Below are positions 1 to 60,451 of a stretch of 60,451 nt of DNA, one piece after another. Source of the stretch: a virus; IMG/VR virus record IMGVR_UViG_3300043449_000416, positions 1-60,451 of that record; one strand, written 5' to 3'. The notes under the pieces were generated by a model. The model saw nothing but the letters and a program-made list of their open reading frames with translations, did not search any database and had not been told where the DNA came from. The position numbers were made by a program, and so were the translations under genes. Each line of letters opens with the position of its first letter. The stretch's first letter is position 1.

Positions 1-126
1 TTACTTCTGGACGCACAGTGTTTGTATTTGCGGAACGCGCTATCGTATCCTGCAATAGGACATCATTTAGTGGAGAGCTGTTCGCCCGACGTACTCGTTC
101 TTGGAGATTAGGTAGCCCTTCGCGCC
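1..126. repeat. Terminal redundancy: nt 1-126 are identical to nt 60326-60451 (circular/permuted genome or assembly overlap)
   Basis: Direct comparison of the first and last lines of the window; an ORF reads in frame through the repeat. Confidence 0.85.
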
Positions 127-817
127 CCGATAGTTCGAAGCTAGGCGTAGTCATTTCAGTGAACGACGGAAGTTGGGCCGCGTCCACCCTCTCTCCAAAA
201 GACGGCAACCCTTCGCGCCCTGCGTAACGCTCGAACACAGGAGGTAAATTATATGGCTGCGTATCGGGCGGGAATACCGACGCGGTCGGTTCTCTATAGG
301 AAGGGTTTACGGCGGTGATACTATCGCCAACAGGCTCCATACCCATCATGCGACTACGCTCAGCACGCTGCTCCACATTGGCTATGACGCGAGCCGCCCC
401 TTCTTCCCCAAGGGATTCGAGGTACTCATCCACACTCATACCCAGCTTGTTGGCATAGGCAATCACAGCGGGGTCAGTCTTAACCTTGTCTCCCTTAGCC
501 ATCTTCTTGACCGGCCCGCCAGCGTACATAGCCTGCACGCCTGTGTTCTGCGCCATGTCAGTGCTCGGGGCTAGGGCTCGCGCCATATCAGCGATACCAC
601 CCTGCGGGACTCCTGCAGCTGCGATAGCCTCTTGGGCCACCGTACCTTGGTCGCCTTTGGCATTCTGCGCGGTGAAGTCGTCCTTCATGCGCTTGCGGCG
701 CATGATTTCCCCAAGAACAAGAAACTGCGGGGCGCTACCCGAAGGTGTCTGCATTTCCCGCACGAGCTGGTCTTGCGAGAAGTTTTTCAACTGATCTTGG
801 AGTTGGACGATGTTCAT
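1..817 (-). CDS. 5' part of a virion protein gene split by the window junction (ATG at 817-815, continues past nt 1 into 60379..59282; about 619 aa in total)
   Basis: Manual minus-strand translation from the ATG at 817 is open to nt 1 (MNIVQLQDQLKNF...GGPVKKMAKGDKVKT...) and runs in frame into ...LQDTIARSANTNTVRPEV, the N-terminus of ORF 59282..60379. TAATG overlap with the stop of the upstream 412-aa ORF. Confidence 0.55.
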   Translation of the reverse strand, partial: MNIVQLQDQLKNFSQDQLVREMQTPSGSAPQFLVLGEIMRRKRMKDDFTAQNAKGDQGTVAQEAIAAAGVPQGGIADMARALAPSTDMAQNTGVQAMYAGGPVKKMAKGDKVKTDPAVIAYANKLGMSVDEYLESLGEEGAARVIANVEQRAERSRMMGMEPVGDSITAVNPSYREPTASVFPPDTQPYNLPPVFERYAGREGLPSFGERVDAAQLPSFTEMTTPSFELSGREGLPNLQERVRRANSSPLNDVLLQDTIARSANTNTVRPEV

Positions 818-16544: not shown

Positions 16545-16820
16545 TTACGACCAGAACAGGGTCTGTGCGGTGACGTTAGTGGCGGTTGCCACGAACGGAT
16601 CAGCCTCAAAAAGAACACCCGTGCCGGGGATAAAGATGTCGTAAGTACCGGCGGCACCAAAATCCATGTCGATCTTAGTAGTTCCGCCACTTCCACTCGT
16701 GAGAGTGACACGCCCAGCACCGCTAAGCGTGACAACAACCATCCTGATCCTTGCGCGACCGATACCTACAGCACCTGTTGCGGTTACCCGTTTGGAACTT
16801 ACGTCATATTCATCGGCCAT
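16545..16820 (-). CDS. Hypothetical protein (91 aa)
   Basis: ORF in the structural arm. Confidence 0.4.
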   Translation of the reverse strand: MADEYDVSSKRVTATGAVGIGRARIRMVVVTLSGAGRVTLTSGSGGTTKIDMDFGAAGTYDIFIPGTGVLFEADPFVATATNVTAQTLFWS

Positions 16821-16832
16821 GTGGGCCTCCTA

Positions 16833-17102
16833 TTAGCTAAGAGCTGCGCCAACAGCAGTGACCCATGCGGAGCCTGTCGAAACAACAAGGCAGTACTCGT
16901 TGTTAGCCACACCGTTGTCGTTGATGAGACGGACCTGACCGGCGTTGCCCGCGGCAGCCGTCGGCAGTGAGGCGGTTGCGATAGCGGTGAGCTTGACGAA
17001 GCTGGTGACGGTCACGTCACCAGAGACAGCGCCGATGAAGCCGTTCTCAGACGTTACCGGTCCCGAGAAAGTTGTAGAAGCCATGGAAATACCCCTTTGC
17101 AC
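16833..17102 (-). CDS. Hypothetical small structural protein (89 aa)
   Basis: ORF downstream of the HNH and capsid genes. Confidence 0.4.
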   Translation of the reverse strand: MQRGISMASTTFSGPVTSENGFIGAVSGDVTVTSFVKLTAIATASLPTAAAGNAGQVRLINDNGVANNEYCLVVSTGSAWVTAVGAALS

Positions 17103-17201
17103 AAGGATTCGCCGCGCAGTCTGTGCAACGTCAGGTCGGGCGTCCTGTCTGCGTGGCTGATGTTACCCTGTGGGGATTGTACACTACTATCGCCAACCGC
17201 G

Positions 17202-17771
17202 CTAGAGCCTGTTACTTTTGGAGCTGTTTTCTATGTGCGTGAGAATCTGTAAGTTCCACGGAACGTGAAGACCGCAAACGACTTCGGAGCGGAGTGGTAT
17301 AATGTGGTCGACGACATGCTTGATTCCGGTGTCGCGGGTAAGCCTGCGTGCCGCGAGATACATCTCACGAATTTGTAGCTTGTGCTCCGCGGTCAACCAC
17401 GGGGGCGAAGCGTTTCTAAGTCGCCGACGCCTGACGTTAACACCCAGCTGGACGTAGTCTGGGTTTCTAGCCTTCCACGCCCGCTTGTATTCACGGGTAG
17501 CTTCGGCAGACTGACTGGTGGCGCGGGCTAAAACTAACTCGCGATTGCGCTCATAATACCGACGACCCGCTGCCTTGGCAGCGTCGGATTTAGGCTGAGA
17601 TTTCCGACGCTCGTTATCTGTGGCCCAGTCCTCTTTCATGCACTCCACACAGGCACCCTTGGTTTTGCGTGGGGCTACGTGCCCACGCACGCAGGGCTCG
17701 CCGGTGAAGTAGTGTGTTGCGCCAAGAGCTTTGGCTTCTTTGCGGGTCTTTGGATATTCCATTTGCGCCAC
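17202..17771 (-). CDS. HNH endonuclease (free-standing, with N-terminal Cys-rich motif)
   Basis: C-terminal HVDHIIPLRSEVVCGLHVPWNLQILTHIENSSKSN is an HNH signature; N-terminus has a CxxxH...CxxC cluster. Confidence 0.75.
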   Translation of the reverse strand: MAQMEYPKTRKEAKALGATHYFTGEPCVRGHVAPRKTKGACVECMKEDWATDNERRKSQPKSDAAKAAGRRYYERNRELVLARATSQSAEATREYKRAWKARNPDYVQLGVNVRRRRLRNASPPWLTAEHKLQIREMYLAARRLTRDTGIKHVVDHIIPLRSEVVCGLHVPWNLQILTHIENSSKSNRL

Positions 17772-17878
17772 CTGTGGTTTTTGACACGGGTAACGTAAAC
17801 GGCGTAATGGCCGCGGTCAAGCGCAAAAGAAAAGGCCCGCCGAAGCGGGCCTTAACTCTGCTAAGTGCTTGATTTTCC

Positions 17879-18784
17879 TCAAGCGCCGGGAGAAGCGTAC
17901 ATCGCCAGCGGGTCGGAAACGCCGAAACTGTAGCGCTCCCTTGCTTTGTACCTCACGTTGCCAGTGTCAAAATCCCCGTCCATTGAAGTCGACATAGCGA
18001 CGCGAACGAAGTGCTTCATACCATTCGGGATGTCGGTGGTGAGGTACCACGCGTCATTGTCCGTCAGGTAGTGGTTGACGCGATACCCCTCGGGGATGGA
18101 CCCGTTGTTGTTAAGCGCGTTGATGTCGTTATCGGCGGTGCCGACACGCAGCTCGGTCTGCAGCAGACGAGTTGCAACAAACATCAGGCTCGGCGGAACA
18201 ATCAGCTTGCGCGGACGGGCAGCGATCAACAGACCACGTTCGTCTTTGTAAGCAGCGATGTCGATAACCGCTTGTTCCAGCGAGGTCTCGTTGAGGTCGG
18301 TGTCAACCGAAGGACGGTTGGCGTTAGTGCCGCCCGCAACGGTAGGGTGCGCGTTGTTGAACAAAGTTACGCCGTCACCCGAGGTGAAGGTCGTAAAGCC
18401 CGTATTCAGCAGCGAAGCAGCCTTGACCTGCTTGGTGTACGCCATGGCGCGAGCGAGCGCCTTGGTGTAGCGAGCCGAGAGCGAGTCGTACAGGTTGTCT
18501 TCCATAGCTTCTTCGGTGATCGAGAAGCCCATGGCCACCGTCTCGTGATTGTAACGAGCGGTGAACGATTCCTGTGCGTTGTCATACGAGATGGCAGAGC
18601 CTTCCGGTTTCACCGGAGCTGCGCCGAACCCGCTGAGCTTAACTTCCTCTTCAAAGCTACGCTCCGAAGTCTCGGTCTCATAAAACTCAGCATGCTCGTT
18701 TTCGTATTTGCCGTATTCAAGACCGAACAGGGCGTTAAGGCCCGGAAGCAGTTCTTTAAGGGCCTGTGCGCGTGAAATAGCCAT
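17879..18784 (-). CDS. Putative major capsid protein
   Basis: 301-aa ORF directly downstream of the scaffold-like gene; composition and position are consistent with an HK97-fold capsid protein. Confidence 0.5.
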   Translation of the reverse strand: MAISRAQALKELLPGLNALFGLEYGKYENEHAEFYETETSERSFEEEVKLSGFGAAPVKPEGSAISYDNAQESFTARYNHETVAMGFSITEEAMEDNLYDSLSARYTKALARAMAYTKQVKAASLLNTGFTTFTSGDGVTLFNNAHPTVAGGTNANRPSVDTDLNETSLEQAVIDIAAYKDERGLLIAARPRKLIVPPSLMFVATRLLQTELRVGTADNDINALNNNGSIPEGYRVNHYLTDNDAWYLTTDIPNGMKHFVRVAMSTSMDGDFDTGNVRYKARERYSFGVSDPLAMYASPGA

Positions 18785-19882: not shown

Positions 19883-20795
19883 TTTGCATATCCTTTAGCT
19901 TCTGCGCCGCGAATATTTTAAGCGGTACCCCAAGACGCTTGGCGAGAGCGGCCTCAGAGGAGGTTAGCACAACCTTGCGCGGTGCTTTCGTGCTGCGAGC
20001 AGCCGGGGCGACCACGGTACCAGCCTGACGTCGGGGTGCTTTTTCCTCAATGAGCCCGTCGTCAAACCTGTCTGGAAACGTGCGGCGAACCGCGTCGTCT
20101 ATCTTAGAATAATACAAATCGCTCTGCGGATCAATTCCCTGTGCTACGAGGTCCTCATGGACGCCCATAGCGAAGCCGGTCATCGATTTGTCCTTCATGA
20201 ACCAAGAGTTCTTATCGGCCCATTGCATCGCCCGATCATCAGGCTTTGCCACTTTAGGAGCGGCCTGCTGTTGGGTCTGCGGCACAGGAGCGGTGGCCTG
20301 CGCGGCGCGCGGTCTGTAGTTCTGCACTCGGTCGGCCTCGACCTGCAGCTTGAGCAGTTTCTCTTGCGCAGCGAGAACAGCGTCAGCGTCGCCGCTCTCG
20401 TAAGCCGACTTATACGCGGTCCGCGCGGATGAGAGTTCGCTCTCAAGGCGGGCCTTGGTCTGTCCGACAAAAGCAGTCTCGCCATCAGCGTAAGCCTTAC
20501 GAAGCTCCTCGTTCTCCCTACGAATCTTTTCGGCGTAGGAGATGGCCTCCTCACGGAGACGGACAGCTTCTTCCTTGGCGCGACGCTCAGCGTGCTGATC
20601 GAACTTGAGCTTGTTGATGCGTTTTTTGACGCTATCAGAGTAACCCTCTAGGTCGTCATCATCGGCACCTTTGGTCTCAACCTCAGAAGCTTTCGGTTTG
20701 CCTCGGTCTTGCTCAGGGGTATCATCCTGAACCTCAATTTCGAGCTCGTCATCGTTCTCGATGTCAACTTCGATGTCATCATTCTTGTCGCTCAT
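19875..20795 (-). CDS. Putative scaffolding protein
   Basis: 306 aa; highly acidic N-terminus (DDIEVDIENDDELEIEVQDD), predicted helical charged core; lies between portal and capsid. Confidence 0.5.
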   Translation of the reverse strand: MSDKNDDIEVDIENDDELEIEVQDDTPEQDRGKPKASEVETKGADDDDLEGYSDSVKKRINKLKFDQHAERRAKEEAVRLREEAISYAEKIRRENEELRKAYADGETAFVGQTKARLESELSSARTAYKSAYESGDADAVLAAQEKLLKLQVEADRVQNYRPRAAQATAPVPQTQQQAAPKVAKPDDRAMQWADKNSWFMKDKSMTGFAMGVHEDLVAQGIDPQSDLYYSKIDDAVRRTFPDRFDDGLIEEKAPRRQAGTVVAPAARSTKAPRKVVLTSSEAALAKRLGVPLKIFAAQKLKDMQNG

Positions 20796-21160
20796 GCTCG
20801 GCTGTACCCCCGTGGGTCTTCGACAACCGCCTCAACGGTGTCATCATTAATGAGACGGAACTCTTTGCCCAGAACTTTGAATCTGGTTCCTGAGTAGGAG
20901 CGGAAGATGACGAAGTCGCCCTCTTTGCACCAAGGTCCGTTTGGGAATTTGTTGAGATCGGCGTATGCGTCAGGTCCCACCTTGACCACAAATCCAACGA
21001 TGGACGCCGTTTCCTCAGCTTTTTTAAGCTGGTCCGGCATGTAGATTCCGCCTTCGGTTTTCTCGCTGACCTCTGGGACGGCGATCAGTAGCCTATAGCC
21101 CGATGGTTCCGGCAGCTTAGCCTTTAGCTGCTCGTCTTCGACTTTATTAGCCGTATACAT
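20792..21160 (-). CDS. GroES/Cpn10-like co-chaperonin
   Basis: Pattern GYRLLIAVPEVSEKTEGGIYMPDQ...IVGFVVKVGP...GDFVIFRSYSG...FRLINDDTVEAVV follows the GroES beta-barrel signature (ektxGGI, VxAVGxG, GDxVxF). Confidence 0.55.
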   Translation of the reverse strand: MYTANKVEDEQLKAKLPEPSGYRLLIAVPEVSEKTEGGIYMPDQLKKAEETASIVGFVVKVGPDAYADLNKFPNGPWCKEGDFVIFRSYSGTRFKVLGKEFRLINDDTVEAVVEDPRGYSRA

Positions 21161-21239: not shown

Positions 21240-21431
21240 TCAGTCCGCAATAAATCTTTTCTCTAGGTCCTTTACGTCATCGTACATGCGCTGGAGCGCC
21301 GTATATTCCCCGACGCTCCGGCAATAATCCTCATAGCTCTTGGCACCGCCCGTTGCGAGGTGGTGCTCAATGGCTGACTTCTGCTCGTTCAGACCGCGAA
21401 TCATAAAGGCAAAGATGGTATCTTCCATCAC
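21240..21431 (-). CDS. Hypothetical small protein (63 aa)
   Basis: ORF with 4-nt overlap to the portal stop. Confidence 0.35.
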   Translation of the reverse strand: MMEDTIFAFMIRGLNEQKSAIEHHLATGGAKSYEDYCRSVGEYTALQRMYDDVKDLEKRFIAD

Positions 21432-23917
21432 TGGCCCCCAGCGTTAGGCGATTTGCGCGCTTGGAGCAGCCGTGCCGCCTCGATGGCGAGGCGCGTGCCA
21501 TCCATCTGAGCTTTGACATTCTCTTTCGCAGCGTCAGTGGCAAGCTTTGCCATGGTGTTTGCCGCGGATCGGTCGTTCTCGCTCTCGACACGCTCCTGCT
21601 GGATGTAGAGGTTTCCAGCGCTGGTGGCGGCGCTGACCTGCAGTTTCTTGTTGTCGAAGTCGATCTTGTGCTGCAGTTCTTTCTCTTTGATGTCCAACTC
21701 GCGCATCTGGATGATAGTGAGCGGGTCCTGTGCCTGCTGCTCTGCCGTAGCGGCCTGCTGCTCTGCCTGATTCTTGTTGAACAGCTTGGCTGCGGCCTGA
21801 GCAACCATACGGGACAGCTGCACCTCGACTTCCTCGGGCAGCGGCTCGCCCTCGGGCGGCAGCGGAACACCGAGGTTCATCTCGATCTCTTTGCGATACT
21901 GATAGGCAACGTGCTCGGTAATATGCGCCATGGCAGCCCCTTGAATAGCCTGCGCGAAGGGCGACTGGCCGACCATCTGAGCAATCTTCGGGTCCTGCAT
22001 CGCGGCCATGTGGGCAGCAATATGTGCTTCGTGGTCTTGGTAGAGGAACGCTTTGACAGGGGACTGCTGCAACAGCGCCATATTCTCGGCCACTGGGTCC
22101 ATGGGCTTCATATCTGCCGGAGACTTAATGATGTCCTTAGCGTCTTGGATGCCCAGCACCTCGAGCATCTGTGAGTGCAGCTTGCCCATATCGTACAGCT
22201 GCGGAGCCTGCTGTGATAACTGCAGCGCGGCCTGATACTGCATGATCCGCTGCGCCATGGTGGCGGCGTTAGGATCAGATACCGGGATTATATCCACGCG
22301 CCCATCAAAGTCCTCGATGCGGTTGAAGTCACCGTCCATCTCGTAGGCATACTGCTCTGGCATGTAGTCATGCACGATCCGCGCGAGGATGCGTAGTTCC
22401 TGCTTCATAGCTGCGTGCAGGCGGGCTTGAACACCCGACATAACCTTCAAACTGCGCTCGAGCAGGGCGAGCGTGGTACCCACCGGTGCGTTTGCACTCA
22501 TGTCACCCACTTGGATGTCAGCCACGGAGCCGATGCGACGGCCTTCCTCAACCACGTTACCCAGCAGGGTATACAGGACGCTCGATGGCTCTTTGTACGG
22601 CATCGGGAACAGGCTCTCGCGGAGCGTACCTCCCGTCACGTCAGCGTCTCTCCACTCACCGGGCATCAGCGGGGTGTTGTCACCCTTGATGCGCAGGCTC
22701 CGGGCCTTGAGGCCCGCTGGGAGGTTAGACAGGGTGCCCGCATCGATGAGCTGCCGCAGGATTGACGTCGCAGACTTAGCCAGACCGCCGATCAGATGAA
22801 TTAGTCCCGTACCGTAGAACCCCATACCCGGCAGGTAGGGGTAGTGGGTGAAGTGCATCAGCTTGCGCTTCTTCGCGTCATCTTCCTTCCAGTTACGGCG
22901 GATAGCGAGAACAGTCCGAGAGGTCTTGTCGATTGTGATGACGTAAGGCCGTGCCACGCCATCCTCATCCTCGAACGGCTCCGGCAGGTCGATGTCCACG
23001 TGCATTTCCAAGAGTGTACGGCGCGGATCATCCTCGAATGTCTGCTCCTCCCCCGCCAGCTCGGCGTATTTCTCCTCGATGTCGGTGAGGTCTTTCTCCG
23101 CATCAGGCAGCTCGACATCGCGGTAGAAGCCAACAACCTGCAGCTCACGGACCTCATTGTCGGTCTTCTTCATCACATGTGTGAACCGTGGGCAGACGCG
23201 CAGGTTAGACGCGCCGTAGGAGACCACGAGGTCCTCAGCAGGAACAAAAATGGATGAGGGGAGCTCTGTGATGGGATCGTAGTATGTCTTCTTGAACGCT
23301 GACCCGGCCAGCGGGAGGCGGAACAGCATCAGCTCCATCTCGTCGCGGTAGTCCGGCATCTCCTCAGTGATGAGGTAGTTCATCTCATTCTGGACGCGGT
23401 TAGCTTGGTCAGCCTTCTCGGGGGTAAGTTTACCCATGATCTTTGTCCGTACCGGCCCCGAGGCGGGCATCAGCTCGCTCATTGCCTGCGCTTGGAACCG
23501 CACCACGGCCTCGGTCAGCATCGGGTGATAGACACCGGAGGCACCGGCCCAAGGCTGCGTGCGGTCCTCGATCTTCATCCCCAGCAAGTCCAAGCCGGTA
23601 ATATAGGCCGACGCCCAGTCCTTGCGGCTCTCACGATCAGAGAGAAAAGATCCAACCAGCTCACTGGCGATACTCTCAAGCTCCCCATCGTCAATGATTT
23701 CGGCGAGGTTGGTGTCGTGGGCGGTCATGTCCGCGCCCGTATCGTCCTCACCATCGCCGAAGTCGACTAGGACCTCACCGGTATCCGCATCGATTTGGAT
23801 TGATGGGTCTTCTTCCGTCGCGATGGATACTTCAATCTCGGTATCGTCCTGCGGCCCGAACTCGAACGGCGTCATCGGCTTCTCGATTGCCATGGCATAT
23901 CCCCTGTAGGTCTCCAC
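21428..23917 (-). CDS. Putative portal protein
   Basis: 829-aa ORF immediately downstream of the terminase gene; size and position are typical of portals. Confidence 0.55.
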   Translation of the reverse strand: METYRGYAMAIEKPMTPFEFGPQDDTEIEVSIATEEDPSIQIDADTGEVLVDFGDGEDDTGADMTAHDTNLAEIIDDGELESIASELVGSFLSDRESRKDWASAYITGLDLLGMKIEDRTQPWAGASGVYHPMLTEAVVRFQAQAMSELMPASGPVRTKIMGKLTPEKADQANRVQNEMNYLITEEMPDYRDEMELMLFRLPLAGSAFKKTYYDPITELPSSIFVPAEDLVVSYGASNLRVCPRFTHVMKKTDNEVRELQVVGFYRDVELPDAEKDLTDIEEKYAELAGEEQTFEDDPRRTLLEMHVDIDLPEPFEDEDGVARPYVITIDKTSRTVLAIRRNWKEDDAKKRKLMHFTHYPYLPGMGFYGTGLIHLIGGLAKSATSILRQLIDAGTLSNLPAGLKARSLRIKGDNTPLMPGEWRDADVTGGTLRESLFPMPYKEPSSVLYTLLGNVVEEGRRIGSVADIQVGDMSANAPVGTTLALLERSLKVMSGVQARLHAAMKQELRILARIVHDYMPEQYAYEMDGDFNRIEDFDGRVDIIPVSDPNAATMAQRIMQYQAALQLSQQAPQLYDMGKLHSQMLEVLGIQDAKDIIKSPADMKPMDPVAENMALLQQSPVKAFLYQDHEAHIAAHMAAMQDPKIAQMVGQSPFAQAIQGAAMAHITEHVAYQYRKEIEMNLGVPLPPEGEPLPEEVEVQLSRMVAQAAAKLFNKNQAEQQAATAEQQAQDPLTIIQMRELDIKEKELQHKIDFDNKKLQVSAATSAGNLYIQQERVESENDRSAANTMAKLATDAAKENVKAQMDGTRLAIEAARLLQARKSPNAGGQ

Positions 23918-24201: not shown

Positions 24202-26688
24202 CTAGTAGTAATCAACTTTTCTTCTGTATGGCAGCTCTTCATCCAGCTCATCTGTCGGCAGGCGGATGAACCCCCCTTGGCGGAACCGCATCAGGGCCAT
24301 TATTGTCGTGTCGCAGTTGTGGACCAGCACACCGTTAGCGTAGTAGCAGTGAGTGTCAGCTACCGTCAGGTTGTATACTGGCTTTTTCTCTTCTCCTACG
24401 TTTATACTGTCTACTTGCGCACGTGTTGCCGCAAAGTTCGGCCCGGCCAGAAGACGATAGAAACTGCGTACTGCACTCCTTACAGGTACGGATAACCGGG
24501 TTTTCAGCCTGCTCTTTGAGCTTTTTCTCTCTAGCCTCACGGGCGGCCCCACCAAGTTTAAGGTACTTAGCTGTGCGATCTCTGTGCCAAGCTCTACCTT
24601 CCTCTGAACGGTGCCACTCGCTCGCCTTGCCACGAACCCTGTTAAGCAGGGCAAGTTGCTCGGGGCTTCTCGCTCTAATGCTGCGCTCTTCGGAGTGGCG
24701 TCTGCAGTGCTCTTCGCGAGATACGCACTCAAGGTTAGTGACGCCGTTGTTATCCCAATTTCCGTCCTTGTGGTGAACCTCCCAGCCGTCTGGAATAGGC
24801 CCATTGTGGAACTCCCACACAGCGCGGTGCAAGTTGAACCCTCCGGCTCGCTGAAAATACTTCCGAAGAGACGCTCTCGGAGAGTTCGGATAGCGGTTGT
24901 AAGTGTAGCCGTTGAACACAACAGACTCCGTGTGAACTTCTGGTTTAGTCGGCCACGGCATTTGCGCCCCCATTGCTTGGTCACCTTTACTGTATCAGTC
25001 ACAGTAATAGTGTCAAGACGCTTCCACCCGCACGTTGTGGCGATTGGGTGGTTCCCGGTGCCTTCCAGAGTGTGGCCTCCAGCGCGCAGAATAAATGTAT
25101 TTCGCACCCCTGTGCAACCTGCGGCCTGTACCACTTTCGCCCCCGCTGGCGTTTTAACGACGTCCCCGATCTTTATTGTTTCAATAGGTTGCTCTATTCC
25201 ATCAGCCATCAGAACTTGCGTTCCGGCTACAAAACAGTGGTCGTCGTTTTCAGCGAACGGGAATCCTGCAACTTCCTCGACCAGCTCCTCTGCCCACCGT
25301 TTAGGCGGCACCCAGACCAGCCCCGAGGAGATGATATCAGACACAGAGTTCAGACGCGCCATCTTGCTATTCGGGTTGTTTACCGAGCCCCTGACAGGGG
25401 TGTACTCCTGCACCATGAGCCCCGAGCGGCGCATCTCCTGATACAACGGCGTCCCCGAACTCTTTTTCTCGACGATGAACACGTCGGGTTCCCACTGCTG
25501 ATACTCCTCCAGAGCCAACGCTTTGAGCTCTGGAAACTCCATGCGCCGCTTGATGGCATTGAGCAGGATGATCTGGTGCATGTTCTCCTCGTCATTGAAG
25601 AACACTCCCCACGTTGTCAGAGACGTGAAGTCAGCCCGGTTGTGGGCTTCTGCAGCGGCGTCGAGAGACATGATGATATACTCTACAGCCGGTGGGTCGT
25701 CGTCTGGCCACAGCCGCCACCAATCTCTCTTGATTATGGCAGCTTCTTCGCCCGTCGGATTCTGCTGATACTGCGCGTTCCACTGGAACACCGGCATGGA
25801 GGCCTTGGTCCGCAGCAGTGCTTGTAGATCAAAAAACTCAGGCCAGAGGGCTCTTTGAATTATATTTTCTTCACCAGTGACGTTGTCTTTCTGGACTACG
25901 TCTAAAATAGCCGGAAACTCCACCACCTCATATTGGTCGGAGTTCTCGTTGTTGGCCATATCTTGAATAAGGCGTCCTGTTAGATCTTTTTTATGCCATC
26001 TTGTATGGACCACGGCCACGCGCCCCCCGGGCATCAGACGCGTCCGGGCCCCGAAGGCGAACCATTCGTAAGCTTTGTCGAATGCCGTGAAGTTTCCGTT
26101 CAAGATATCCTGCTCGGAGTGCGGGTCGTCGACGAGCAGCAGGTCAGCGCCGCGGCCCGCGAGGGCCGATCCCACGCCCGTGGCGTAAAACTCGCATCCT
26201 GTGGTCGTGTTCCAGCGCCCAGCCGACTTGCTGTCAGAGGACAGCGCGAGGTTCGGGAAGACCTGCTGGTAGGGCTCAGAGTCGATGATATTCCGCACCT
26301 TCCGACCGAAATCGACGGCTAGGTCCGTCGTATGCGAGACCAACATGACCTTTTTCCCGGGGTTTCGACCGATGAACCATGCAGGATAGTAGGTTGAGAC
26401 GAGCTGAGACTTGCCGTGGCGGGGTGGGATGTTGACGCAGACCCTGTCTTTGTCCCCCCGCTCGATGTCCATGAGCTCATCCGCTAGAATTCTATGGTGT
26501 CGGCCCACCTTATAGGTACGGTCCATATACTTACAGAAGGCAATCAGGTCATCCTTGGCACCCTGCAGCGTGGCGCGCTTGTCCAACTCCTCGAGCATTT
26601 TCTCGATCTCGAGCAGTTCCTGCTCGTCGAGCATATCCACGCTCTTGAGGAGCGTTTCGAGCTCTGCTCGATTGAAGTCGGAGCTCAT
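24202..26688 (-). CDS. terL: Terminase large subunit, interrupted by an intein
   Basis: Walker A (IPPRHGKSQ), Walker B (ADLLLVDDPH) and a C-terminal nuclease region; intein blocks CFVAGTQVLMADG... (A), TGNHP (B) and ...YYANGVLVHN/CDTTI (F/G). Confidence 0.85.
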   Translation of the reverse strand: MSSDFNRAELETLLKSVDMLDEQELLEIEKMLEELDKRATLQGAKDDLIAFCKYMDRTYKVGRHHRILADELMDIERGDKDRVCVNIPPRHGKSQLVSTYYPAWFIGRNPGKKVMLVSHTTDLAVDFGRKVRNIIDSEPYQQVFPNLALSSDSKSAGRWNTTTGCEFYATGVGSALAGRGADLLLVDDPHSEQDILNGNFTAFDKAYEWFAFGARTRLMPGGRVAVVHTRWHKKDLTGRLIQDMANNENSDQYEVVEFPAILDVVQKDNVTGEENIIQRALWPEFFDLQALLRTKASMPVFQWNAQYQQNPTGEEAAIIKRDWWRLWPDDDPPAVEYIIMSLDAAAEAHNRADFTSLTTWGVFFNDEENMHQIILLNAIKRRMEFPELKALALEEYQQWEPDVFIVEKKSSGTPLYQEMRRSGLMVQEYTPVRGSVNNPNSKMARLNSVSDIISSGLVWVPPKRWAEELVEEVAGFPFAENDDHCFVAGTQVLMADGIEQPIETIKIGDVVKTPAGAKVVQAAGCTGVRNTFILRAGGHTLEGTGNHPIATTCGWKRLDTITVTDTVKVTKQWGRKCRGRLNQKFTRSLLCSTATLTTAIRTLRERLFGSIFSEPEGSTCTALCGSSTMGLFQTAGRFTTRTEIGITTASLTLSAYLAKSTADATPKSAALEREAPSNLPCLTGFVARRASGTVQRKVELGTEIAQLSTLNLVGPPVRLERKSSKSRLKTRLSVPVRSAVRSFYRLLAGPNFAATRAQVDSINVGEEKKPVYNLTVADTHCYYANGVLVHNCDTTIMALMRFRQGGFIRLPTDELDEELPYRRKVDYY
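24316..25236 (-). other. Intein within terL (aa 485-791 of the precursor)
   Basis: N-terminal Cys after ...FAENDDH, C-terminal HN followed by +1 Cys; boundaries computed from the ORF. Confidence 0.75.
24356..24973 (-). CDS. HNH endonuclease ORF nested inside the terL intein, in a different reading frame
   Basis: HRAVWEFHNGPIPDGWEVHHKDGNWDNNGVTNLECVSREEHCRRH is an unambiguous HNH motif; the ORF exactly fills the gap between the intein N- and C-terminal splicing blocks and has a GGTGA-like RBS upstream of its ATG. Confidence 0.7.
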   Translation of the reverse strand: MGAQMPWPTKPEVHTESVVFNGYTYNRYPNSPRASLRKYFQRAGGFNLHRAVWEFHNGPIPDGWEVHHKDGNWDNNGVTNLECVSREEHCRRHSEERSIRARSPEQLALLNRVRGKASEWHRSEEGRAWHRDRTAKYLKLGGAAREAREKKLKEQAENPVIRTCKECSTQFLSSSGRAELCGNTCASRQYKRRRREKASIQPDGS

Positions 26689-42406: not shown

Positions 42407-44245
42407 GTGGACATAATAACTATAGACATGGAGACCTACTACGACAAAGACTACTCGCTGTCTAAGATCACCACGGAAGAATATGTCCGTGACCCCCGCT
42501 TCCAAGTCATTGGGGTGGGGGTGAAGGTCAACGACGATAAGACCGAGTGGTTCAGTGGAACACACGGCAAGATCAAGGAGTTCTTGGCTCAGTATGACTG
42601 GGCTAACTCCGCGGTGTTGGTACACAATATGATGTTCGATGGCTCGATCCTGTCGTGGCGATTTGGTATTCGTCCGAAGGCGCTGTTCGACACACTGTGC
42701 ATGGCCCGTGCGATCCACGGTGTCGAGAAAAGCGCCAGCCTAAAGGCCCTCGCCGAGAACTATGCGGTAGGGGAGAAGGGCACCGAGGTGCTGGACGCCA
42801 AGGGTAAACGTCGCGGAGACTTCACACCGGAGGAGCTATCGGCCTACGGGCGTTACTGTATCAATGACGTAGACCTGACCTACGATATCTTCAACATCAT
42901 GATGTCCCGTGGGTTCCCGAAGTCTGAACTCAAGTTGATCGACCTAACCCTGCGTATGTTCACTGAGCCTACGATAGGGCTGGATCGGGAGCGTCTCGAG
43001 AAGCATCTCGTGAAGACGCAGACTATGAAGGAAGACCTGCTCAAGTCTGCTGGCGTCGAGGATAAAGCCGACCTCATGTCGAACCCGAAGTTTGCCGCAC
43101 TGTTAGGGACGCTCGGTGTCCCGTGCCCTATGAAGATCAGCCCTACCACGGGTAAAATGACCTACGCGCTGGCTAAGACTGATCAGGGTATGAAAGACCT
43201 GCTGGAGCATGATGATCCACAGGTGCAGGCGCTGGCCGCTGCGCGCCTCGGGGTGAAGTCTACGCTCGAGGAGACCCGCACACAGCGGTTTATCGACATC
43301 GCTGGGCGGGGCCTGCTGCCTGTCCCGGTGCGCTACTACGCGGCTCATACAGGGCGCTGGGGTGGTGACGACAAGATCAACCTGCAGAATCTGCCTAGTC
43401 GGGGGCCTAATGCCAAGGCGCTTAAGAAGTGCATAGTGGCACCAGAAGGCCATAGCATCGTCGAAGCCGACTCGTCACAGATCGAAGCGCGCATGCTGGC
43501 ATGGCTGGCTGGGCAAGACGACGTGGTGCAGACCTTCGCGTCTAAGGGTGACGTCTATAAGAAGATGGCCTCAGCGATCTACAACGTGGACGAGGCTGAC
43601 GTGACCAAGGATCAACGGTTTGTAGGTAAAACAACAGTTTTGGGCGCGGGGTATGGCATGGGTGGCGAGAAGTTCCAGCTGGCTCTTAAGAATTCCGGGG
43701 TGGACATCACCAAAAACGAGGCGGCTAAGATCATCGGCATCTACCGAGAAACCAACAACATGATCTCGAACATGTGGAAGCAGGCCGGAACCATGCTGCG
43801 TTATATGGTGCGTGGTGACGCTATGCCATTCGGTAAGGATGGGGTTCTTGGTGTGGATACCTATGCTCCCGGTATCAAGCTGCCCAATGGCCTTCTGATC
43901 CGCTACGATGGACTGCTAGAGAGCGAGAACGAGAAGGGTGGCACCGAGTATTCTTACAAGACCCGCATGGGCCCCACTCGCATCTACGGCGGTAAGGTGG
44001 TCGAGAATGTCACGCAAGCACTCGCCAGACTTATCATCGGCGAACAAATGCTGCGAATTAGTAAGAAGTACAGAGTTGTGTTGACTGTTCATGACAGTAT
44101 CGTATGCTGTGTACCTGACCAAGAAGCCGAAGCCTGCAAAGCCTACGTCGAGCAGTGTATGCGCTGGGTTCCCGCTTGGGCCGAGGGCTTACCCGTGGAC
44201 TGCGAGGCCGGGGTCGGCAAGAATTATGGAGAGTGCGATGCTTGA
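42407..44245 (+). CDS. DNA polymerase (family A-like) with N-terminal 3'-5' exonuclease
   Basis: Exo motifs IITIDMETYYD, HNMMFDGSIL, YCINDVDLTYDIF; polymerase motifs VEADSSQIEARMLAWLAG, KDQRFVGKTTVLGAGYG, VHDSIVCCV. Confidence 0.8.
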   Translation: MDIITIDMETYYDKDYSLSKITTEEYVRDPRFQVIGVGVKVNDDKTEWFSGTHGKIKEFLAQYDWANSAVLVHNMMFDGSILSWRFGIRPKALFDTLCMARAIHGVEKSASLKALAENYAVGEKGTEVLDAKGKRRGDFTPEELSAYGRYCINDVDLTYDIFNIMMSRGFPKSELKLIDLTLRMFTEPTIGLDRERLEKHLVKTQTMKEDLLKSAGVEDKADLMSNPKFAALLGTLGVPCPMKISPTTGKMTYALAKTDQGMKDLLEHDDPQVQALAAARLGVKSTLEETRTQRFIDIAGRGLLPVPVRYYAAHTGRWGGDDKINLQNLPSRGPNAKALKKCIVAPEGHSIVEADSSQIEARMLAWLAGQDDVVQTFASKGDVYKKMASAIYNVDEADVTKDQRFVGKTTVLGAGYGMGGEKFQLALKNSGVDITKNEAAKIIGIYRETNNMISNMWKQAGTMLRYMVRGDAMPFGKDGVLGVDTYAPGIKLPNGLLIRYDGLLESENEKGGTEYSYKTRMGPTRIYGGKVVENVTQALARLIIGEQMLRISKKYRVVLTVHDSIVCCVPDQEAEACKAYVEQCMRWVPAWAEGLPVDCEAGVGKNYGECDA

Positions 44246-44696
44246 GCTGGAGTGGCGGGCCATACCGGGATACGCCTACGAGGTATCTTCGGCGGGCGAT
44301 GTTCGTAACGCCATAACCCGTAAGGTGCTAACCCCAATGCGCACTGGCTGGAGAGCCGTGGTTAGGTTGTCTACCAATCCGCGGGTAGACTTTCCTGTAT
44401 CTCACTTGGTGCTATCCGCGTTTAGTGGGGCTCGACCGCTGGGCGGAGTAGCTATGCACATGGATGATGACCCGCATAACAACCATGCAAACAATCTGCG
44501 GTGGGGCACCATGCAAGATAATGCTAGAGATATGGCACAAAAGTGTCGGGGAGGTAAGCAGGTGCTAACCGCTGAGGTGGTTACTGAAATCCGTGCGCGG
44601 AGGGCATCCGGGGAACGGGGTCGAGAATTGGCTGTAGCGTATGGTATATCCGAACAGCGTGTATGTGACATACATAAAGGGCGTACTACACTATGA
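44226..44696 (+). CDS. HNH homing-endonuclease-like protein, overlapping the 3' end of the DNA polymerase gene
   Basis: WRAIPGYAYEVSSAGDVRN... N-terminal module and MHMDDDPHNNHANNLRWGTMQDNARD HNH-type motif; first ATG lies inside the last codons of the polymerase gene. Confidence 0.65.
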   Translation: MESAMLELEWRAIPGYAYEVSSAGDVRNAITRKVLTPMRTGWRAVVRLSTNPRVDFPVSHLVLSAFSGARPLGGVAMHMDDDPHNNHANNLRWGTMQDNARDMAQKCRGGKQVLTAEVVTEIRARRASGERGRELAVAYGISEQRVCDIHKGRTTL

Positions 44697-45358
44697 GCAG
44701 CGCGGGTGCATGGTCTTTTAGTCGGATGAAGGCGTTTGAGACGTGCCCGAAGCAGTACTATCACGTGAACGTCCTAAAGCAGTTTTCGTTCCAAGAGACC
44801 GAGGCGACCAGATACGGCACCGAATTCCACAAGGCCTGTGAAGAGTACATCCGTGACGGTAAGCCAATGTCGCCGCAGTTCTCATTCATGCAGCCCGCTA
44901 TGGAAAAGCTTGCGGCCATGCCGGGGGAGAAGCACTGCGAACTCAAGATGGGGCTCACAGCTGATCTCGAGGCGTGCGGGTTCTTCGATAAGGGTGTGTG
45001 GTTCCGCGGCATCGTGGACCTGCTGATTATAGACGGAGACGGGGCCCGTGTCGTAGACTACAAGACGGGCAAGAGCGCGAAGTATGCCGACGTCGGACAG
45101 CTGCAGTTGATGGCACTGTCGGTGTTCAAACACTTCCCGCAGGTCAAGAAGGTGAAGGGCGCGTTGCTCTTCACCATCGCCAACGACATCGTGAAGCAGG
45201 ACTACTCGGTGACTGACGAGGGCGTGCTGTGGAAGCCGTGGGTGATGAAATACGCCGCCTTGGAGAAGGCCCACGAGACAAACGTGTGGAATCCTCGACC
45301 TTCTGGGCTATGCCGAAAGTACTGCCCTGTGGTAGAATGTGCCCATAACGGGGGTTGA
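44693..45358 (+). CDS. PD-(D/E)XK nuclease (Cas4/RecB-like exonuclease)
   Basis: GIVDLLIIDGDGARVVDYKTGK (D...DYK), QLQLMAL, N-terminal Cys and C-terminal CRKYCPVVEC Cys cluster as in Cas4-like nucleases. Confidence 0.7.
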   Translation: MSSAGAWSFSRMKAFETCPKQYYHVNVLKQFSFQETEATRYGTEFHKACEEYIRDGKPMSPQFSFMQPAMEKLAAMPGEKHCELKMGLTADLEACGFFDKGVWFRGIVDLLIIDGDGARVVDYKTGKSAKYADVGQLQLMALSVFKHFPQVKKVKGALLFTIANDIVKQDYSVTDEGVLWKPWVMKYAALEKAHETNVWNPRPSGLCRKYCPVVECAHNGG

Positions 45359-45621
45359 TTGCCATGCCATACACGAAGTCGCCGCGTCCTTATAAGGCCG
45401 AATACCAGAAACAAATAGAACGTGGTGAGCACCCGGACCGCATGGAGCGGCAGCGTGCTCGGCGTGCCTTGGACAAGAAGGGCGTTGACCGCACAGGCAA
45501 GGACGTGAGCCACAAGAAAGCGTTGGCCAAGGGGGGCAGCAACGCTGACGGCTATAAGCTAGAGAGCCCCTCGAAGAACCGTAGCCGGAACGGCCATAAA
45601 CCCGGTGAGAAAAAAGGTTAG
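45355..45621 (+). CDS. Small basic hypothetical protein (88 aa)
   Basis: Arg/Lys-rich ORF ATGA-coupled to the upstream gene. Confidence 0.4.
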   Translation: MIAMPYTKSPRPYKAEYQKQIERGEHPDRMERQRARRALDKKGVDRTGKDVSHKKALAKGGSNADGYKLESPSKNRSRNGHKPGEKKG

Positions 45622-45634
45622 GGAAAACCCTAAC
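45617..45634. repeat. GTTAG-N-CTAAC hairpin family member (perfect palindrome)
   Basis: gttagggaaaaccctaac, immediately upstream of the helicase start. Confidence 0.6.
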
Positions 45635-45649
45635 GTCTCGGAGAACGAT

Positions 45650-60379: not shown

Positions 60380-60451
60380 TAGGACATCATTTAGTGGAGA
60401 GCTGTTCGCCCGACGTACTCGTTCTTGGAGATTAGGTAGCCCTTCGCGCCC
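60326..60451. repeat. Terminal redundancy (copy of nt 1-126)
   Basis: Identical to the first 126 nt of the window. Confidence 0.85.

What the first reader, a model, noticed from the sequence alone, without database searches (positions are those of the whole stretch)
17202..17771. Free-standing HNH endonuclease inside the capsid gene block
An HNH with an N-terminal Cys-rich motif sits between the capsid gene and the small structural genes. In some phages such HNH proteins cooperate with terminase in packaging; alternatively it is a mobile homing endonuclease. Counting the two intein-nested nucleases and the HNH at the polymerase 3' end, the genome carries at least four endonuclease genes of homing type.
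Basis: partly seen in the sequence, partly recalled or inferred. Interest (0 to 1): 0.45.

Follow-up and report, generated by a model that had tools for sequence, protein, structure and literature searches.

The report
Mobile HNH nuclease gene beside capsid gene
A small nuclease gene just after this phage's capsid gene is most likely an optional, selfish "homing" element, not part of the DNA-packaging machinery: most close relatives lack it, and some carry an unrelated homing nuclease gene at the same spot.

Summary
The ORF is real. It lies on the minus strand at 17202..17762 (186 aa).

The protein has three parts: an N-terminal Cys-His-Cys-Cys knuckle, a helical middle, and a C-terminal D-H...N...N HNH-type core. 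These residues are invariant in 41-62 homologues. No Pfam or NCBIfam model matches, and structural matches to solved HNH nucleases are weak.

The window is a complete HTVC023P-type podovirus genome. The gene sits between the capsid-gene terminator and the promoter and leader of the next structural gene, and it has its own promoter-like element.

It is optional:
- All 7 cultured relatives lack it at this locus.
- Of 68 metagenomic loci with 78-95% identical capsid protein and enough downstream sequence, 3 carry it, 7 carry GIY-YIG endonuclease genes in the same slot, 2 carry other candidate nucleases, and 56 carry none of these.
- One HNH-positive and one empty locus are 95% identical in DNA up to the junction.

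HNH and capsid protein identities are partly discordant, and dN/dS is 0.05-0.17. The best reading is a free-standing homing endonuclease in an insertion hot spot, a known kind of element. A packaging role is not supported. Cleavage and homing are untested.

The parts
17202..17762 (-).
   Evidence: dN/dS 0.05-0.17 against orthologues
17628..17762 (-). N-terminal module (residues 1-45): YFTGxPCxxGH...CxxC, a Cys-His-Cys-Cys knuckle. Presumed zinc-binding DNA-recognition module (inferred).
   Evidence: C24/H28/C38/C41 invariant. The module also matches PHROG families whose profiles are only 67-75 positions long (phrog_1081, phrog_23777). It occurs in 1-4 tandem copies in longer homologues.
17328..17627 (-). 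Helical middle region (residues 46-145)
   Evidence: AlphaFold2 model, helices 39-55, 60-72, 74-82, 86-99, 101-115, 125-145; mean pLDDT 88
17205..17327 (-). C-terminal beta-beta-alpha catalytic core (residues 146-186): D152-H153, H166, N170, N179, K182
   Evidence: Invariant residues. Strands 149-153 and 171-175, then helix 176-181. Weak matches to McrA, Gme, Cas9 and GVE2 HNH structures.
17792..17820 (-). The cassette's own sigma-70-like promoter: -35 TTGACC (17815-17820), 17-nt spacer, -10 TACGTT (17792-17797)
   Evidence: Both hexamers are conserved and the spacer is not in 8 of 10 HNH-positive loci; the other two have extended -10 boxes. It did not pass the simple consensus scan. Function inferred.
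17768..17773 (-). Shine-Dalgarno sequence AGGTGG, 5 nt before the ATG
17825..17853 (-). Intrinsic terminator after the capsid gene (stem-loop 17832-17853, T tract 17825-17833). This is the left boundary of the insertion slot.
   Evidence: The identical terminator precedes the HNH cassette in L008 and L016 and the GIY-YIG cassette in L015.
17176..17181 (-). -10-like box TACAAT for the next gene. This is the right boundary of the slot and is present in both empty and occupied loci.
   Evidence: Aligned with TATAAT, TATTAT and TACACT in L017, L016, L015 and L008
17092..17168 (-). Conserved structured leader of the next structural gene. Not part of the cassette, but it defines the slot's right flank and is a candidate recognition region.
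17879..18784 (-). Major capsid protein gene, the left neighbour. In the L016/L017 pair its last ~90 nt hold a block of synonymous differences between the HNH-positive and empty alleles.
16833..17084 (-). Right neighbour: small cement/decoration-like gene, 83 aa from ATG 17084, with the conserved N-terminus MASTTFSGPVTSENGF
   Evidence: The gene in the matching position of phage DSL-LC04 is annotated 'cement protein'.

Best explanation
This is a free-standing homing endonuclease gene. It forms a self-contained cassette (own promoter, ribosome-binding site, 186-aa ORF) lodged in the intergenic slot between the capsid-gene terminator and the promoter and leader of the next structural gene.

Inferred mechanism:
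1. The N-terminal Cys-His-Cys-Cys knuckle and the helical region recognise a specific DNA sequence.
2. The C-terminal beta-beta-alpha-metal core (D152/H153, N170, N179) nicks or cuts DNA.
3. When this phage and a relative lacking the gene infect the same cell, the enzyme cuts the empty allele near the capsid 3' end or the intergenic region.
4. Recombinational repair then uses the occupied genome as template. This copies the cassette and some flanking sequence into the recipient.
5. The carrier genome is protected by sequence differences at the target.

Shown here: the ORF and its conserved residues, the cassette anatomy, its optional and patchy distribution, the sharing of the slot with other endonuclease families, and purifying selection.

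Inferred, not shown: metal and DNA binding, cleavage, the target site, and homing itself.
For: 1. The gene is optional at a fixed site.
- Gene order from GroES through the capsid gene to the adaptor gene is conserved in 7 cultured relatives, and none has the HNH gene there.
- Among 68 IMG/VR loci chosen only by capsid similarity (78-95% aa) and with at least 700 nt downstream, only L016, L052 and L082 carry it.

2. There is a clean presence/absence pair. L016 and L017 are 95% identical over 2.9 kb up to 8 nt past the capsid stop. L016 then has 693 bp containing the HNH gene where L017 has 95 bp. Homology resumes at 88%.

3. Other endonucleases use the same slot.
- GIY-YIG genes, four of them with NUMOD3 motifs, occupy it in L015 (capsid 95% identical to the window), L046, L066, L071 and L074 (Pfam).
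- L053 and L063 carry homologues of these.
- L073 has a weak GIY-YIG-like match and L044 a DUF723 protein.
- In L015 the GIY-YIG cassette replaces window 17187-17824 almost exactly.

4. The nearest capsid neighbours of occupied loci are often empty: L016-L017 95% nt, L063-L062 95%, L073-L068 90%.

5. HNH and capsid histories disagree. L052 and L082 have capsids 91% identical but HNH proteins 51% identical. L052 and the window have capsids 80% identical but HNH proteins 62% identical.

6. The HNH clade is tied to this site. Six homologues at 52-95% identity all lie directly after the capsid gene. More distant members (34-41%) sit in unrelated contexts in Shewanella, Klebsiella and Pseudomonas phages, and some genomes hold up to 4 copies.

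7. The gene is intact and constrained. dN/dS is 0.05-0.17, and the catalytic and knuckle residues are invariant.

8. The cassette has its own promoter behind a terminator, with conserved hexamers and an unconserved spacer.

9. There are precedents. Free-standing endonuclease genes of T4 sit in intergenic regions between conserved genes, including segD between genes 23 and 24 (gene 23 encodes T4's major capsid protein, from my own knowledge). One endonuclease gene can replace another at the same site (PMC2988022). Such genes cluster near capsid and other essential genes (PMC10448857).
Against: - No cleavage, target site or homing has been demonstrated.
- Within the nearest group (window, L008, L010, L016, L012) HNH divergence tracks capsid divergence. 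Pearson r is 0.68 over all pairs. Much of the inheritance is therefore vertical, and repeated loss from an ancestral state could explain part of the patchiness.
- G+C content equals that of the genome, 0.558 against 0.556, so this is not a recent import from a distant source.
- Strong purifying selection and long-term fidelity to one site would also fit a gene that benefits the phage.
- No nucleotide signature distinguishes all HNH-positive from all empty alleles.
Confidence: 0.8

Rival explanations
1. Packaging accessory nuclease of the HK97 gp74 type. An HNH protein that works with the terminase and portal to cut concatemers at cos sites.
For: It is an HNH-type protein encoded in the late structural module on the same strand as the terminase, portal and capsid genes. 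Phage HNH proteins next to terminase genes are described as packaging components (PMC5304195; Kala et al. 2014, from my own knowledge, paper not held).
Against: - It is not adjacent to the terminase. The large terminase gene is at 24202..26688, 6.4 kb away, with the capsid, scaffold-region, GroES and portal genes between.
- It is not conserved. It is absent from all 7 cultured relatives at this locus and from 65 of 68 close metagenomic relatives, including a phage 95% identical in flanking DNA. These relatives have homologous capsid genes and, where sampled, the same capsid-module gene order.
- The slot is filled by GIY-YIG genes in others.
- It is separated from upstream late transcription by a terminator and has its own promoter.
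Confidence: 0.03
2. A nuclease kept because it benefits the phage, not for homing as such. Examples: excluding co-infecting relatives (marker exclusion, interference competition), degrading host or satellite DNA, or countering a defence system.
For: - Strong purifying selection, dN/dS 0.05-0.17.
- A whole HNH clade (49-95% identity) stays at one site.
- Composition is fully ameliorated.
- Homing endonucleases are reported to cause marker exclusion and to take part in phage-satellite conflicts (PMC2988022; PMC12724721; PMC10448857).
Against: Most close relatives do without it, so any benefit is conditional. Exclusion of competitors is the same molecular act as homing, so this reading overlaps with the best explanation more than it replaces it. 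No defence or anti-defence context was seen around the gene.
Confidence: 0.12
3. Holliday-junction resolvase, or an Endo VII-motif (DHHRN, F-CphI-type) enzyme, as the PHROG label 'endonuclease VII' suggests.
For: Full-length match to phrog_1035, annotated endonuclease VII (E 1.4e-17). Some GenBank records name homologues endonuclease VII. F-CphI also has its catalytic motif at the C-terminus (PMC6083498).
Against: - The defining pattern is a central DHDH flanked by CX2-4C and CX2C. It is absent: the sequence reads DHII and has no flanking cysteine pairs.
- A resolvase would be expected in every relative, and this gene is sporadic.
Confidence: 0.02
4. A catalytically inactive DNA-binding protein derived from an endonuclease. 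For example, a repressor acting on the neighbouring promoter and leader of the cement gene.
For: The gene sits directly upstream of a conserved promoter and structured leader. Endonucleases such as I-TevI also act as repressors, and endonuclease DNA-binding domains have been co-opted as capsid-gene repressors (PMC10448857).
Against: All residues expected for catalysis (D152, H153, N170, N179) are invariant across homologues down to 35% identity. This argues that nuclease activity is retained. Most relatives regulate the same leader without this protein.
Confidence: 0.03

Closest known systems
Free-standing homing endonuclease genes of T4-like phages (mob HNH genes and seg GIY-YIG genes; for example segD between genes 23 and 24, and SegH/Hef replacing mobC/mobE)
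   Same: It is an optional gene in an intergenic region between conserved essential genes, here next to the capsid gene. It has its own expression signals. Different endonuclease families alternate at one site. Distribution among close relatives is patchy (PMC2988022; here).
   Different: The phage lineage is different (HTVC023P-type podoviruses). [quoted passage not shown] Activity is untested.
Cas9-type / HNH_4 (PF13395) and McrA-type HNH nuclease domains
   Different: No significant Pfam match for the query; only 3 of 41 family members reach E 0.03-0.05. The context and N-terminal architecture are entirely different.
HK97 gp74-type packaging HNH proteins
   Same: A small phage HNH-type protein encoded in the late region.
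   Different: It is not next to the terminase genes, it is not conserved among relatives, and it carries an extra N-terminal knuckle and a long helical region.
F-CphI / DHHRN (Endo VII-motif) homing endonucleases of cyanophages
   Same: A free-standing phage endonuclease with a C-terminal catalytic motif, often annotated 'endonuclease VII' (PMC6083498).
   Different: It lacks the DHDH motif and the flanking cysteine pairs that define that family.
Zinc-finger 'beads on a string' DNA-binding modules of T5orf172 homing endonucleases (CapR-like, DUF723)
   Same: A short Cys/His module repeated 1-4 times ahead of the nuclease in homologues, as described for other phage homing endonucleases (PMC10448857).
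   Different: The module sequence is different (YFTGxPCxxGH...CxxC, no Pfam model) and the nuclease class is different.

Membership tests
Free-standing homing endonuclease gene (functional class) | Lies in an intergenic region between genes conserved among related genomes | tested here: met
   It lies between the capsid terminator (17832-17853) and the promoter and leader of the next structural gene. The flanking genes are syntenic in 7 cultured and about 90 metagenomic loci.
Free-standing homing endonuclease gene (functional class) | Optional: present or absent among closely related genomes | tested here: met
   Present in 3 of 68 capsid-selected loci and 0 of 7 cultured relatives. L016 (present) and L017 (absent) are 95% identical in flanking DNA.
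Free-standing homing endonuclease gene (functional class) | Intact nuclease catalytic residues under purifying selection | tested here: met
   D152, H153, N170 and N179 are invariant. dN/dS is 0.05-0.17.
Free-standing homing endonuclease gene (functional class) | History incongruent with that of the host genome (horizontal spread) | tested here: inconclusive
   There are clear discordant pairs (L052-L082: capsid 91%, HNH 51%). Overall, though, the correlation is positive, r = 0.68, from only 10 loci.
Free-standing homing endonuclease gene (functional class) | Site-specific cleavage of the allele that lacks the gene | not testable with these tools
   Needs purified protein and empty-site DNA. 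The only hint is a block of about 20 synonymous differences in the last 30-90 nt of the capsid gene between L016 and L017.
Free-standing homing endonuclease gene (functional class) | Preferential inheritance with co-conversion of flanks in mixed infection | not testable with these tools
   No cultured host or phage is available. The mosaic flanks are compatible with this but are not proof.
HNH / His-Me finger superfamily | Beta-beta-alpha-metal topology, with the catalytic His at the end of strand 1 and Asn/His ligands in strand 2 and the helix | tested here: met
   AlphaFold2 gives strands 149-153 and 171-175 and helix 176-181. D152/H153, N170 and N179 are placed accordingly. pLDDT is 88 for the whole protein and 84 for the domain. 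This is a prediction, not a solved structure.
HNH / His-Me finger superfamily | Significant match to curated HNH sequence models | tested here: not met
   Pfam and NCBIfam give no hit for the query at E<=1 and E<=0.1. Only 3 of 41 homologues touch HNH or HNH_4, at E 0.03-0.05. PHROG HNH families match at E 0.014-0.056. Source pipelines do name homologues McrA/HNHc.
HNH / His-Me finger superfamily | Structural similarity to solved HNH nucleases | tested here: inconclusive
Packaging HNH (HK97 gp74 type) | Gene adjacent to the terminase or portal genes | tested here: not met
   The large terminase gene is at 24202..26688 and the portal gene at 21428..23917. The HNH gene is 6.4 kb from the terminase gene.
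Packaging HNH (HK97 gp74 type) | Position and presence conserved among related phages | tested here: not met
   Absent from most relatives.
Packaging HNH (HK97 gp74 type) | Required for or stimulates terminase cleavage of concatemers | not testable with these tools
   Needs genetics or biochemistry.
DHHRN / Endo VII-motif endonucleases (F-CphI, T4 gp49) | Central DHDH flanked by CX2-4C and CX2C zinc ligands, with a conserved Arg and Asn | tested here: not met
   The sequence is DHII with no flanking cysteine pairs. hhalign to T4 Endo VII gives probability 4%. Definition taken from PMC6083498.
I-HmuI / T4 Mob-type HNH homing endonucleases | N-terminal HNH domain followed by C-terminal DNA-binding modules | tested here: not met
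   The order is reversed here: knuckle and helices first, HNH core last. The T4 Mob architecture is as described in PMC2988022.

The most novel reading that the evidence does not exclude
The short slot between the capsid-gene terminator and the promoter and structured leader of the cement gene may be a shared landing pad in a very abundant group of aquatic podoviruses. At least two, and possibly four, unrelated endonuclease families contest it: this HNH clade, GIY-YIG/NUMOD3, a DUF723 protein, and a divergent GIY-YIG-like gene.

If so, these enzymes may have converged on the same invariant target. Candidates are the nucleotide-conserved leader and the invariant capsid C-terminal coding block.

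The HNH clade would then be a large family without a Pfam model (about 29,000 cluster representatives), whose repeatable YFTGxPCxxGH...CxxC knuckle is a new modular DNA-recognition unit.
Probability: 0.3. Interest if true: 0.5.

Novelty: new member of a known kind. Interest (0 to 1): 0.3.

Why it matters
On its own this is an ordinary selfish element. Free-standing HNH and GIY-YIG endonuclease genes next to essential phage genes are well documented.

It has three modest points of value:
- It corrects the annotation. It is not a packaging component, not endonuclease VII and not McrA.
- It identifies a reproducible insertion hot spot that marks recombination boundaries in HTVC023P-type phages, a group that is abundant in marine and fresh waters.
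- It flags a very large HNH family with a repeatable zinc-knuckle module that Pfam and NCBIfam do not cover.

The conserved structured leader next to it may be the more interesting object.

Tried and rejected
- Pfam (E<=1) and NCBIfam on the query found nothing. Pfam on 41 family members gave only marginal HNH/HNH_4 hits.
- The PDB sequence search with the single protein gave only chance hits to leukocidins. With the family profile it gave Cas9 HNH at E 0.05.
- Foldseek against the PDB with the full model found nothing significant.
- Megablast of 10 kb around the gene against 50,697 phage records found no match.
- A search for a paralogue in the window found none.
- Rfam on 16700-18000 found only terminator-like noise.
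- I looked for a nucleotide signature in the capsid 3' end that separates all HNH-positive from all empty alleles and found none. The AGY serine codon shared by the five closest HNH-positive loci also occurs in roughly a third of the empty ones.
- No remnants of HNH or GIY-YIG genes were found within about 5 kb of the capsid gene in the 7 cultured relatives.
- The Endo VII/DHHRN reading was rejected on motif and hhalign.
- The consensus promoter scan did not report the cassette promoter, whose -10 matches only 3 of 6 positions. I keep the promoter only because of comparative conservation.
- Kala et al. 2014 could not be read.
Full report
**The object**

The window has a 127-nt terminal overlap and is the whole 60,451-nt contig, so it is a complete, circularly closed phage genome.

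On the minus strand an ORF runs from 17771 (GTG) to 17202. The real start is almost certainly ATG 17760-17762:
- It follows the Shine-Dalgarno sequence AGGTGG (17768-17773) by 5 nt, and the GTG lies inside that sequence.
- The identical metagenome protein P0001 and all close homologues are called from this Met (MEYPKT.../MDYPKT...).

The product is 186 aa.

**What the protein is**

Pfam and NCBIfam have no model for it. PHROGs match it at several levels:
- phrog_26577, unknown function, E 2e-23, covering the C-terminus.
- phrog_1035, labelled 'endonuclease VII', E 1e-17, full length.
- Two HNH families, weakly, at E 0.014-0.056.

The family is very large. There are 28,965 cluster representatives at E<=1e-3 among 1.84 billion proteins.

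In alignments of 41 and 62 homologues reaching down to about 35% identity, two sets of residues are invariant:
- C24, H28, C38 and C41, in the motif YFTGxPCxxGH...CxxC.
- D152, H153, G164, L165, N170, N179 and K182, in the motif VDHIxPL...CGLHVPWNLqxlT..eN..K.N.

AlphaFold2 (pLDDT 88, pTM 0.56) predicts a short N-terminal knuckle and six helices. It ends in strand 149-153, a loop, strand 171-175 and helix 176-181. This is the beta-beta-alpha-metal arrangement, with D-H at the end of the first strand and the two Asn residues in the expected places.

Support from solved structures is weak but consistent:
- The family profile matches Cas9 HNH domains at E 0.05, in register.
- Source pipelines call homologues McrA (COG) or HNHc.

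I accept 'HNH-type nuclease' as the best reading, while noting that no curated model reaches significance.

It is not an Endo VII/DHHRN enzyme. The DHDH motif and the two flanking cysteine pairs that define that family are absent (PMC6083498).

The N-terminal knuckle module occurs once here. Longer homologues carry up to four tandem copies. The same module also matches PHROG families whose profiles are only 67-75 positions long, so it may exist as a small stand-alone protein. This resembles the repeated zinc-finger DNA-binding modules described for other phage homing endonucleases (PMC10448857). A role in DNA recognition is inferred, not shown.

**The genomic setting**

The phage is an HTVC023P-type podovirus. 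Its capsid protein (17879..18784) has the following identities to cultured phages:
- 73% to Planktothrix phage Pag-Yong1 and Synechococcus phage MinM2.
- About 65% to Pelagibacter phages HTVC023P and HTVC027P and to phage DSL-LC04.
- 55-56% to Roseobacter phages CRP-901 and CRP-902.

The order of the structural genes is conserved: terminase, portal, GroES, scaffold-region genes, capsid, cement-like gene, adaptor.

Downstream of the capsid stop codon (17879-17881) the elements follow in this order:
- An intrinsic terminator (stem-loop 17832-17853, T tract to 17825).
- A sigma-70-like promoter: TTGACC at 17815-17820, a 17-nt spacer, and TACGTT at 17792-17797.
- The Shine-Dalgarno sequence and the HNH ORF.

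After the HNH stop (17202-17204) come a -10-like TACAAT box (17176-17181), a conserved leader of about 75 nt (17092-17168), and the ATG (17084) of a small cement-like gene.

In ten HNH-positive loci the two promoter hexamers are conserved while the spacer sequence is not. Eight show this pattern and two have extended -10 boxes. That is the pattern expected of a real promoter, although the simple consensus scan did not report it.

**Distribution**

This is the decisive evidence.

None of the 7 cultured relatives has the gene within about 5 kb of the capsid gene. In them the capsid gene is followed directly by the cement-like gene.

A capsid-based scan of IMG/VR returned 80 loci with 78-95% capsid identity, and 68 of these have at least 700 nt downstream. 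Their content in the slot is:
- This HNH gene in 3 loci: L016, L052 and L082.
- GIY-YIG endonuclease genes, always 56-200 nt after the capsid stop, in 7 loci. Pfam confirms L015, L046, L066, L071 and L074, four of them with NUMOD3 motifs. L053 and L063 are assigned by 53-58% identity to the L066 protein.
- A weak GIY-YIG-like gene in 1 locus, L073.
- A 526-aa DUF723 protein in 1 locus, L044.
- None of these in 56 loci.

Among the unbiased loci with at least 90% capsid identity to the window, 1 has the HNH gene, 1 has a GIY-YIG gene and 6 are empty.

In L015 (capsid 95% identical) homology to the window runs through the terminator to 17825 and resumes at 17186. The GIY-YIG cassette therefore replaces the HNH cassette almost base for base.

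L016 (HNH) and L017 (empty) are 95% identical over 2,884 nt up to 8 nt past the capsid stop. L016 then has 693 bp where L017 has 95 bp, and homology resumes at 88%.

The nearest capsid neighbours of occupied loci are often empty.

Conversely, six HNH homologues at 52-95% identity, found through the protein itself, all lie directly after the capsid gene of this phage type. A whole HNH clade is thus tied to this site.

More distant members (34-41%) lie in unrelated places:
- The structural module of Shewanella phage SppYZU01, where the gene is largely unannotated.
- The early region of T7-like Klebsiella phages.
- The queuosine cluster of Pseudomonas phage PaMx25, after an annotated terminator.

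Some of these genomes hold up to four copies.

**Evolutionary signals**

The gene is under purifying selection. dN/dS is 0.05, 0.06 and 0.17 against L008, L010 and L016, similar to the capsid gene. Its G+C content equals the genome's, so it is a functional, long-resident gene rather than a decaying or freshly imported one.

HNH and capsid identities are positively correlated overall (r = 0.68) but clearly discordant in places. L052 and L082 share 91% capsid identity but only 51% HNH identity. The HNH of L052 is closer to the window's (62%), even though its capsid is only 80% identical to the window's.

Between L016 and L017, identity is 96-100% in the 500 nt before the junction (90-100% over the whole 2.9 kb) and drops to 80% in the last 84-nt stretch. 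The cause is a block of about 20 substitutions, all synonymous, 30-90 nt before the capsid stop. The block lies inside the invariant peptide NVRYKARERYSFGVSDPLA.

Such a block is what a recoded (immune) target site or a co-conversion patch would look like. I could not find a signature shared by all HNH-positive alleles, so the target remains unknown.

**Mechanism proposed**

The cassette is shielded from strong late transcription by the capsid terminator and is expressed from its own promoter. The next gene's promoter and leader are left intact, so the insertion is neutral to its neighbours.

In a mixed infection with a relative lacking the gene, the protein would bind a conserved sequence near the slot through the knuckle and helical region. 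It would nick or cut that sequence with the HNH core. Recombinational repair would then copy the cassette and nearby flanks into the recipient.

This is the 'intronless homing' described for T4 seg and mob genes. Those genes also sit between conserved genes, including segD between genes 23 and 24 (gene 23 is T4's capsid gene, from my own knowledge). They also replace one another at the same site (PMC2988022).

Only the anatomy, distribution and selection are shown here. Binding, cleavage, target and homing are inferred.

**Rivals**

- Packaging. HK97 gp74-type HNH genes lie next to terminase genes and are conserved (PMC5304195, and my own knowledge of Kala et al. 2014). This gene is 6.4 kb from the terminase gene, and most close relatives lack it. 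I give this 3%.
- A conditionally beneficial nuclease, for example excluding competitors. This cannot be separated from homing with these data (12%).
- Resolvase or Endo VII, and an inactive regulator derived from an endonuclease. Both are unlikely, for the reasons given above.

An ORF at 44091..44696 carries HNH_3 and NUMOD4 domains, directly after a complete family A DNA polymerase gene. This part of the count is confirmed.

The large terminase (residues about 485-795) and an SNF2 helicase (about 206-497) contain inteins. Their central 150-200 residues match no nuclease model. 'Intein-nested nucleases' is therefore unverified.

**Verdict**

This is a new member of a known kind of element, and its interest is low to moderate. 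The points of some value are the insertion hot spot shared by several endonuclease families, the lack of a Pfam model for a very large family, and the neighbouring structured leader.

Noticed in passing
window 17092-17168 (- strand), with -10-like box 17176-17181: The leader of about 75 nt before the cement-like gene is conserved at 80-98% nucleotide identity in 15 loci, although the downstream protein is only 35-76% identical. Two interleaved helices (GCCACGCAG/CTGCGCGGC and TTGCACA/TGTGCAA) suggest a pseudoknot. 92.6% of cells are paired, against 29-43% when the pairing is slid, and 5 pairs show compensatory changes. There is no Rfam match. It may be a translational operator or other cis-regulatory RNA.
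   Followed up: partly
window 1-127 and 60325-60451: The first 127 nt are repeated exactly at the end, and the window is the whole contig on which P0001 was called. This looks like a complete, circularly closed genome of about 60.3 kb.
   Followed up: partly
window 24202-26688 (-) and 45605-48064 (+): The large terminase (about residues 485-795) and an SNF2-type helicase (about residues 206-497) each contain an intein of roughly 300 aa. Only Hint/splicing models match. The central regions match no known nuclease domain and may be degenerate or novel.
   Followed up: partly
window 44091-44696 (+): A second free-standing endonuclease candidate (HNH_3 plus NUMOD4) starts at about the stop codon of the family A DNA polymerase gene (42407..44245), which itself looks complete. 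The likely start is around 44226 (MESAMLELEWRAIPGY...). A PD-(D/E)XK nuclease gene follows at 44693..45358.
   Followed up: partly
L015 4635-5411; L046 4966-5931; L071 5035-5889; L074 2012-2833; L066 4962-5648; L053, L063; L073 5104-5862; L044 4982-6562: The slot right after the capsid gene holds GIY-YIG (mostly with NUMOD3) endonuclease genes in seven relatives. One relative has a weak GIY-YIG-like gene and one has a 526-aa DUF723 protein. The site is an insertion hot spot for several endonuclease families.
   Followed up: yes
window 16833-17084 (-): The cement/decoration-like gene after the HNH gene is only 83 aa here. In relatives it is 150-295 aa and shares only the N-terminus (M-A-x-T-T-F-S-G-P-V-R-S-x-N-G-F). 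The C-terminal part is highly variable between phages.
   Followed up: no
L095 3001-3504 (Shewanella phage SppYZU01, KY622015.1 13206-13709): The best cultured-phage homologue (41.5% identity, 97% coverage) lies mostly in a stretch with no annotated CDS, between a structural gene and a tail gene. Two other records (Achromobacter phage 2-1, Klebsiella phage KPV811) also show no annotation under the match. Other records label homologues 'tail protein', 'baseplate hub' or 'glycolate dehydrogenase'.
   Followed up: no
window 20792-21160 (-): A GroES-like co-chaperonin gene (phrog_3188; Cpn10 in relatives) sits inside the head module between the portal and scaffold-region genes. It is conserved in all relatives examined.
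   Followed up: no
protein P0127 (597 aa): One family member has two knuckle modules and the HNH core followed by a C-terminal extension of about 330 aa. I did not characterise the extension.
   Followed up: no
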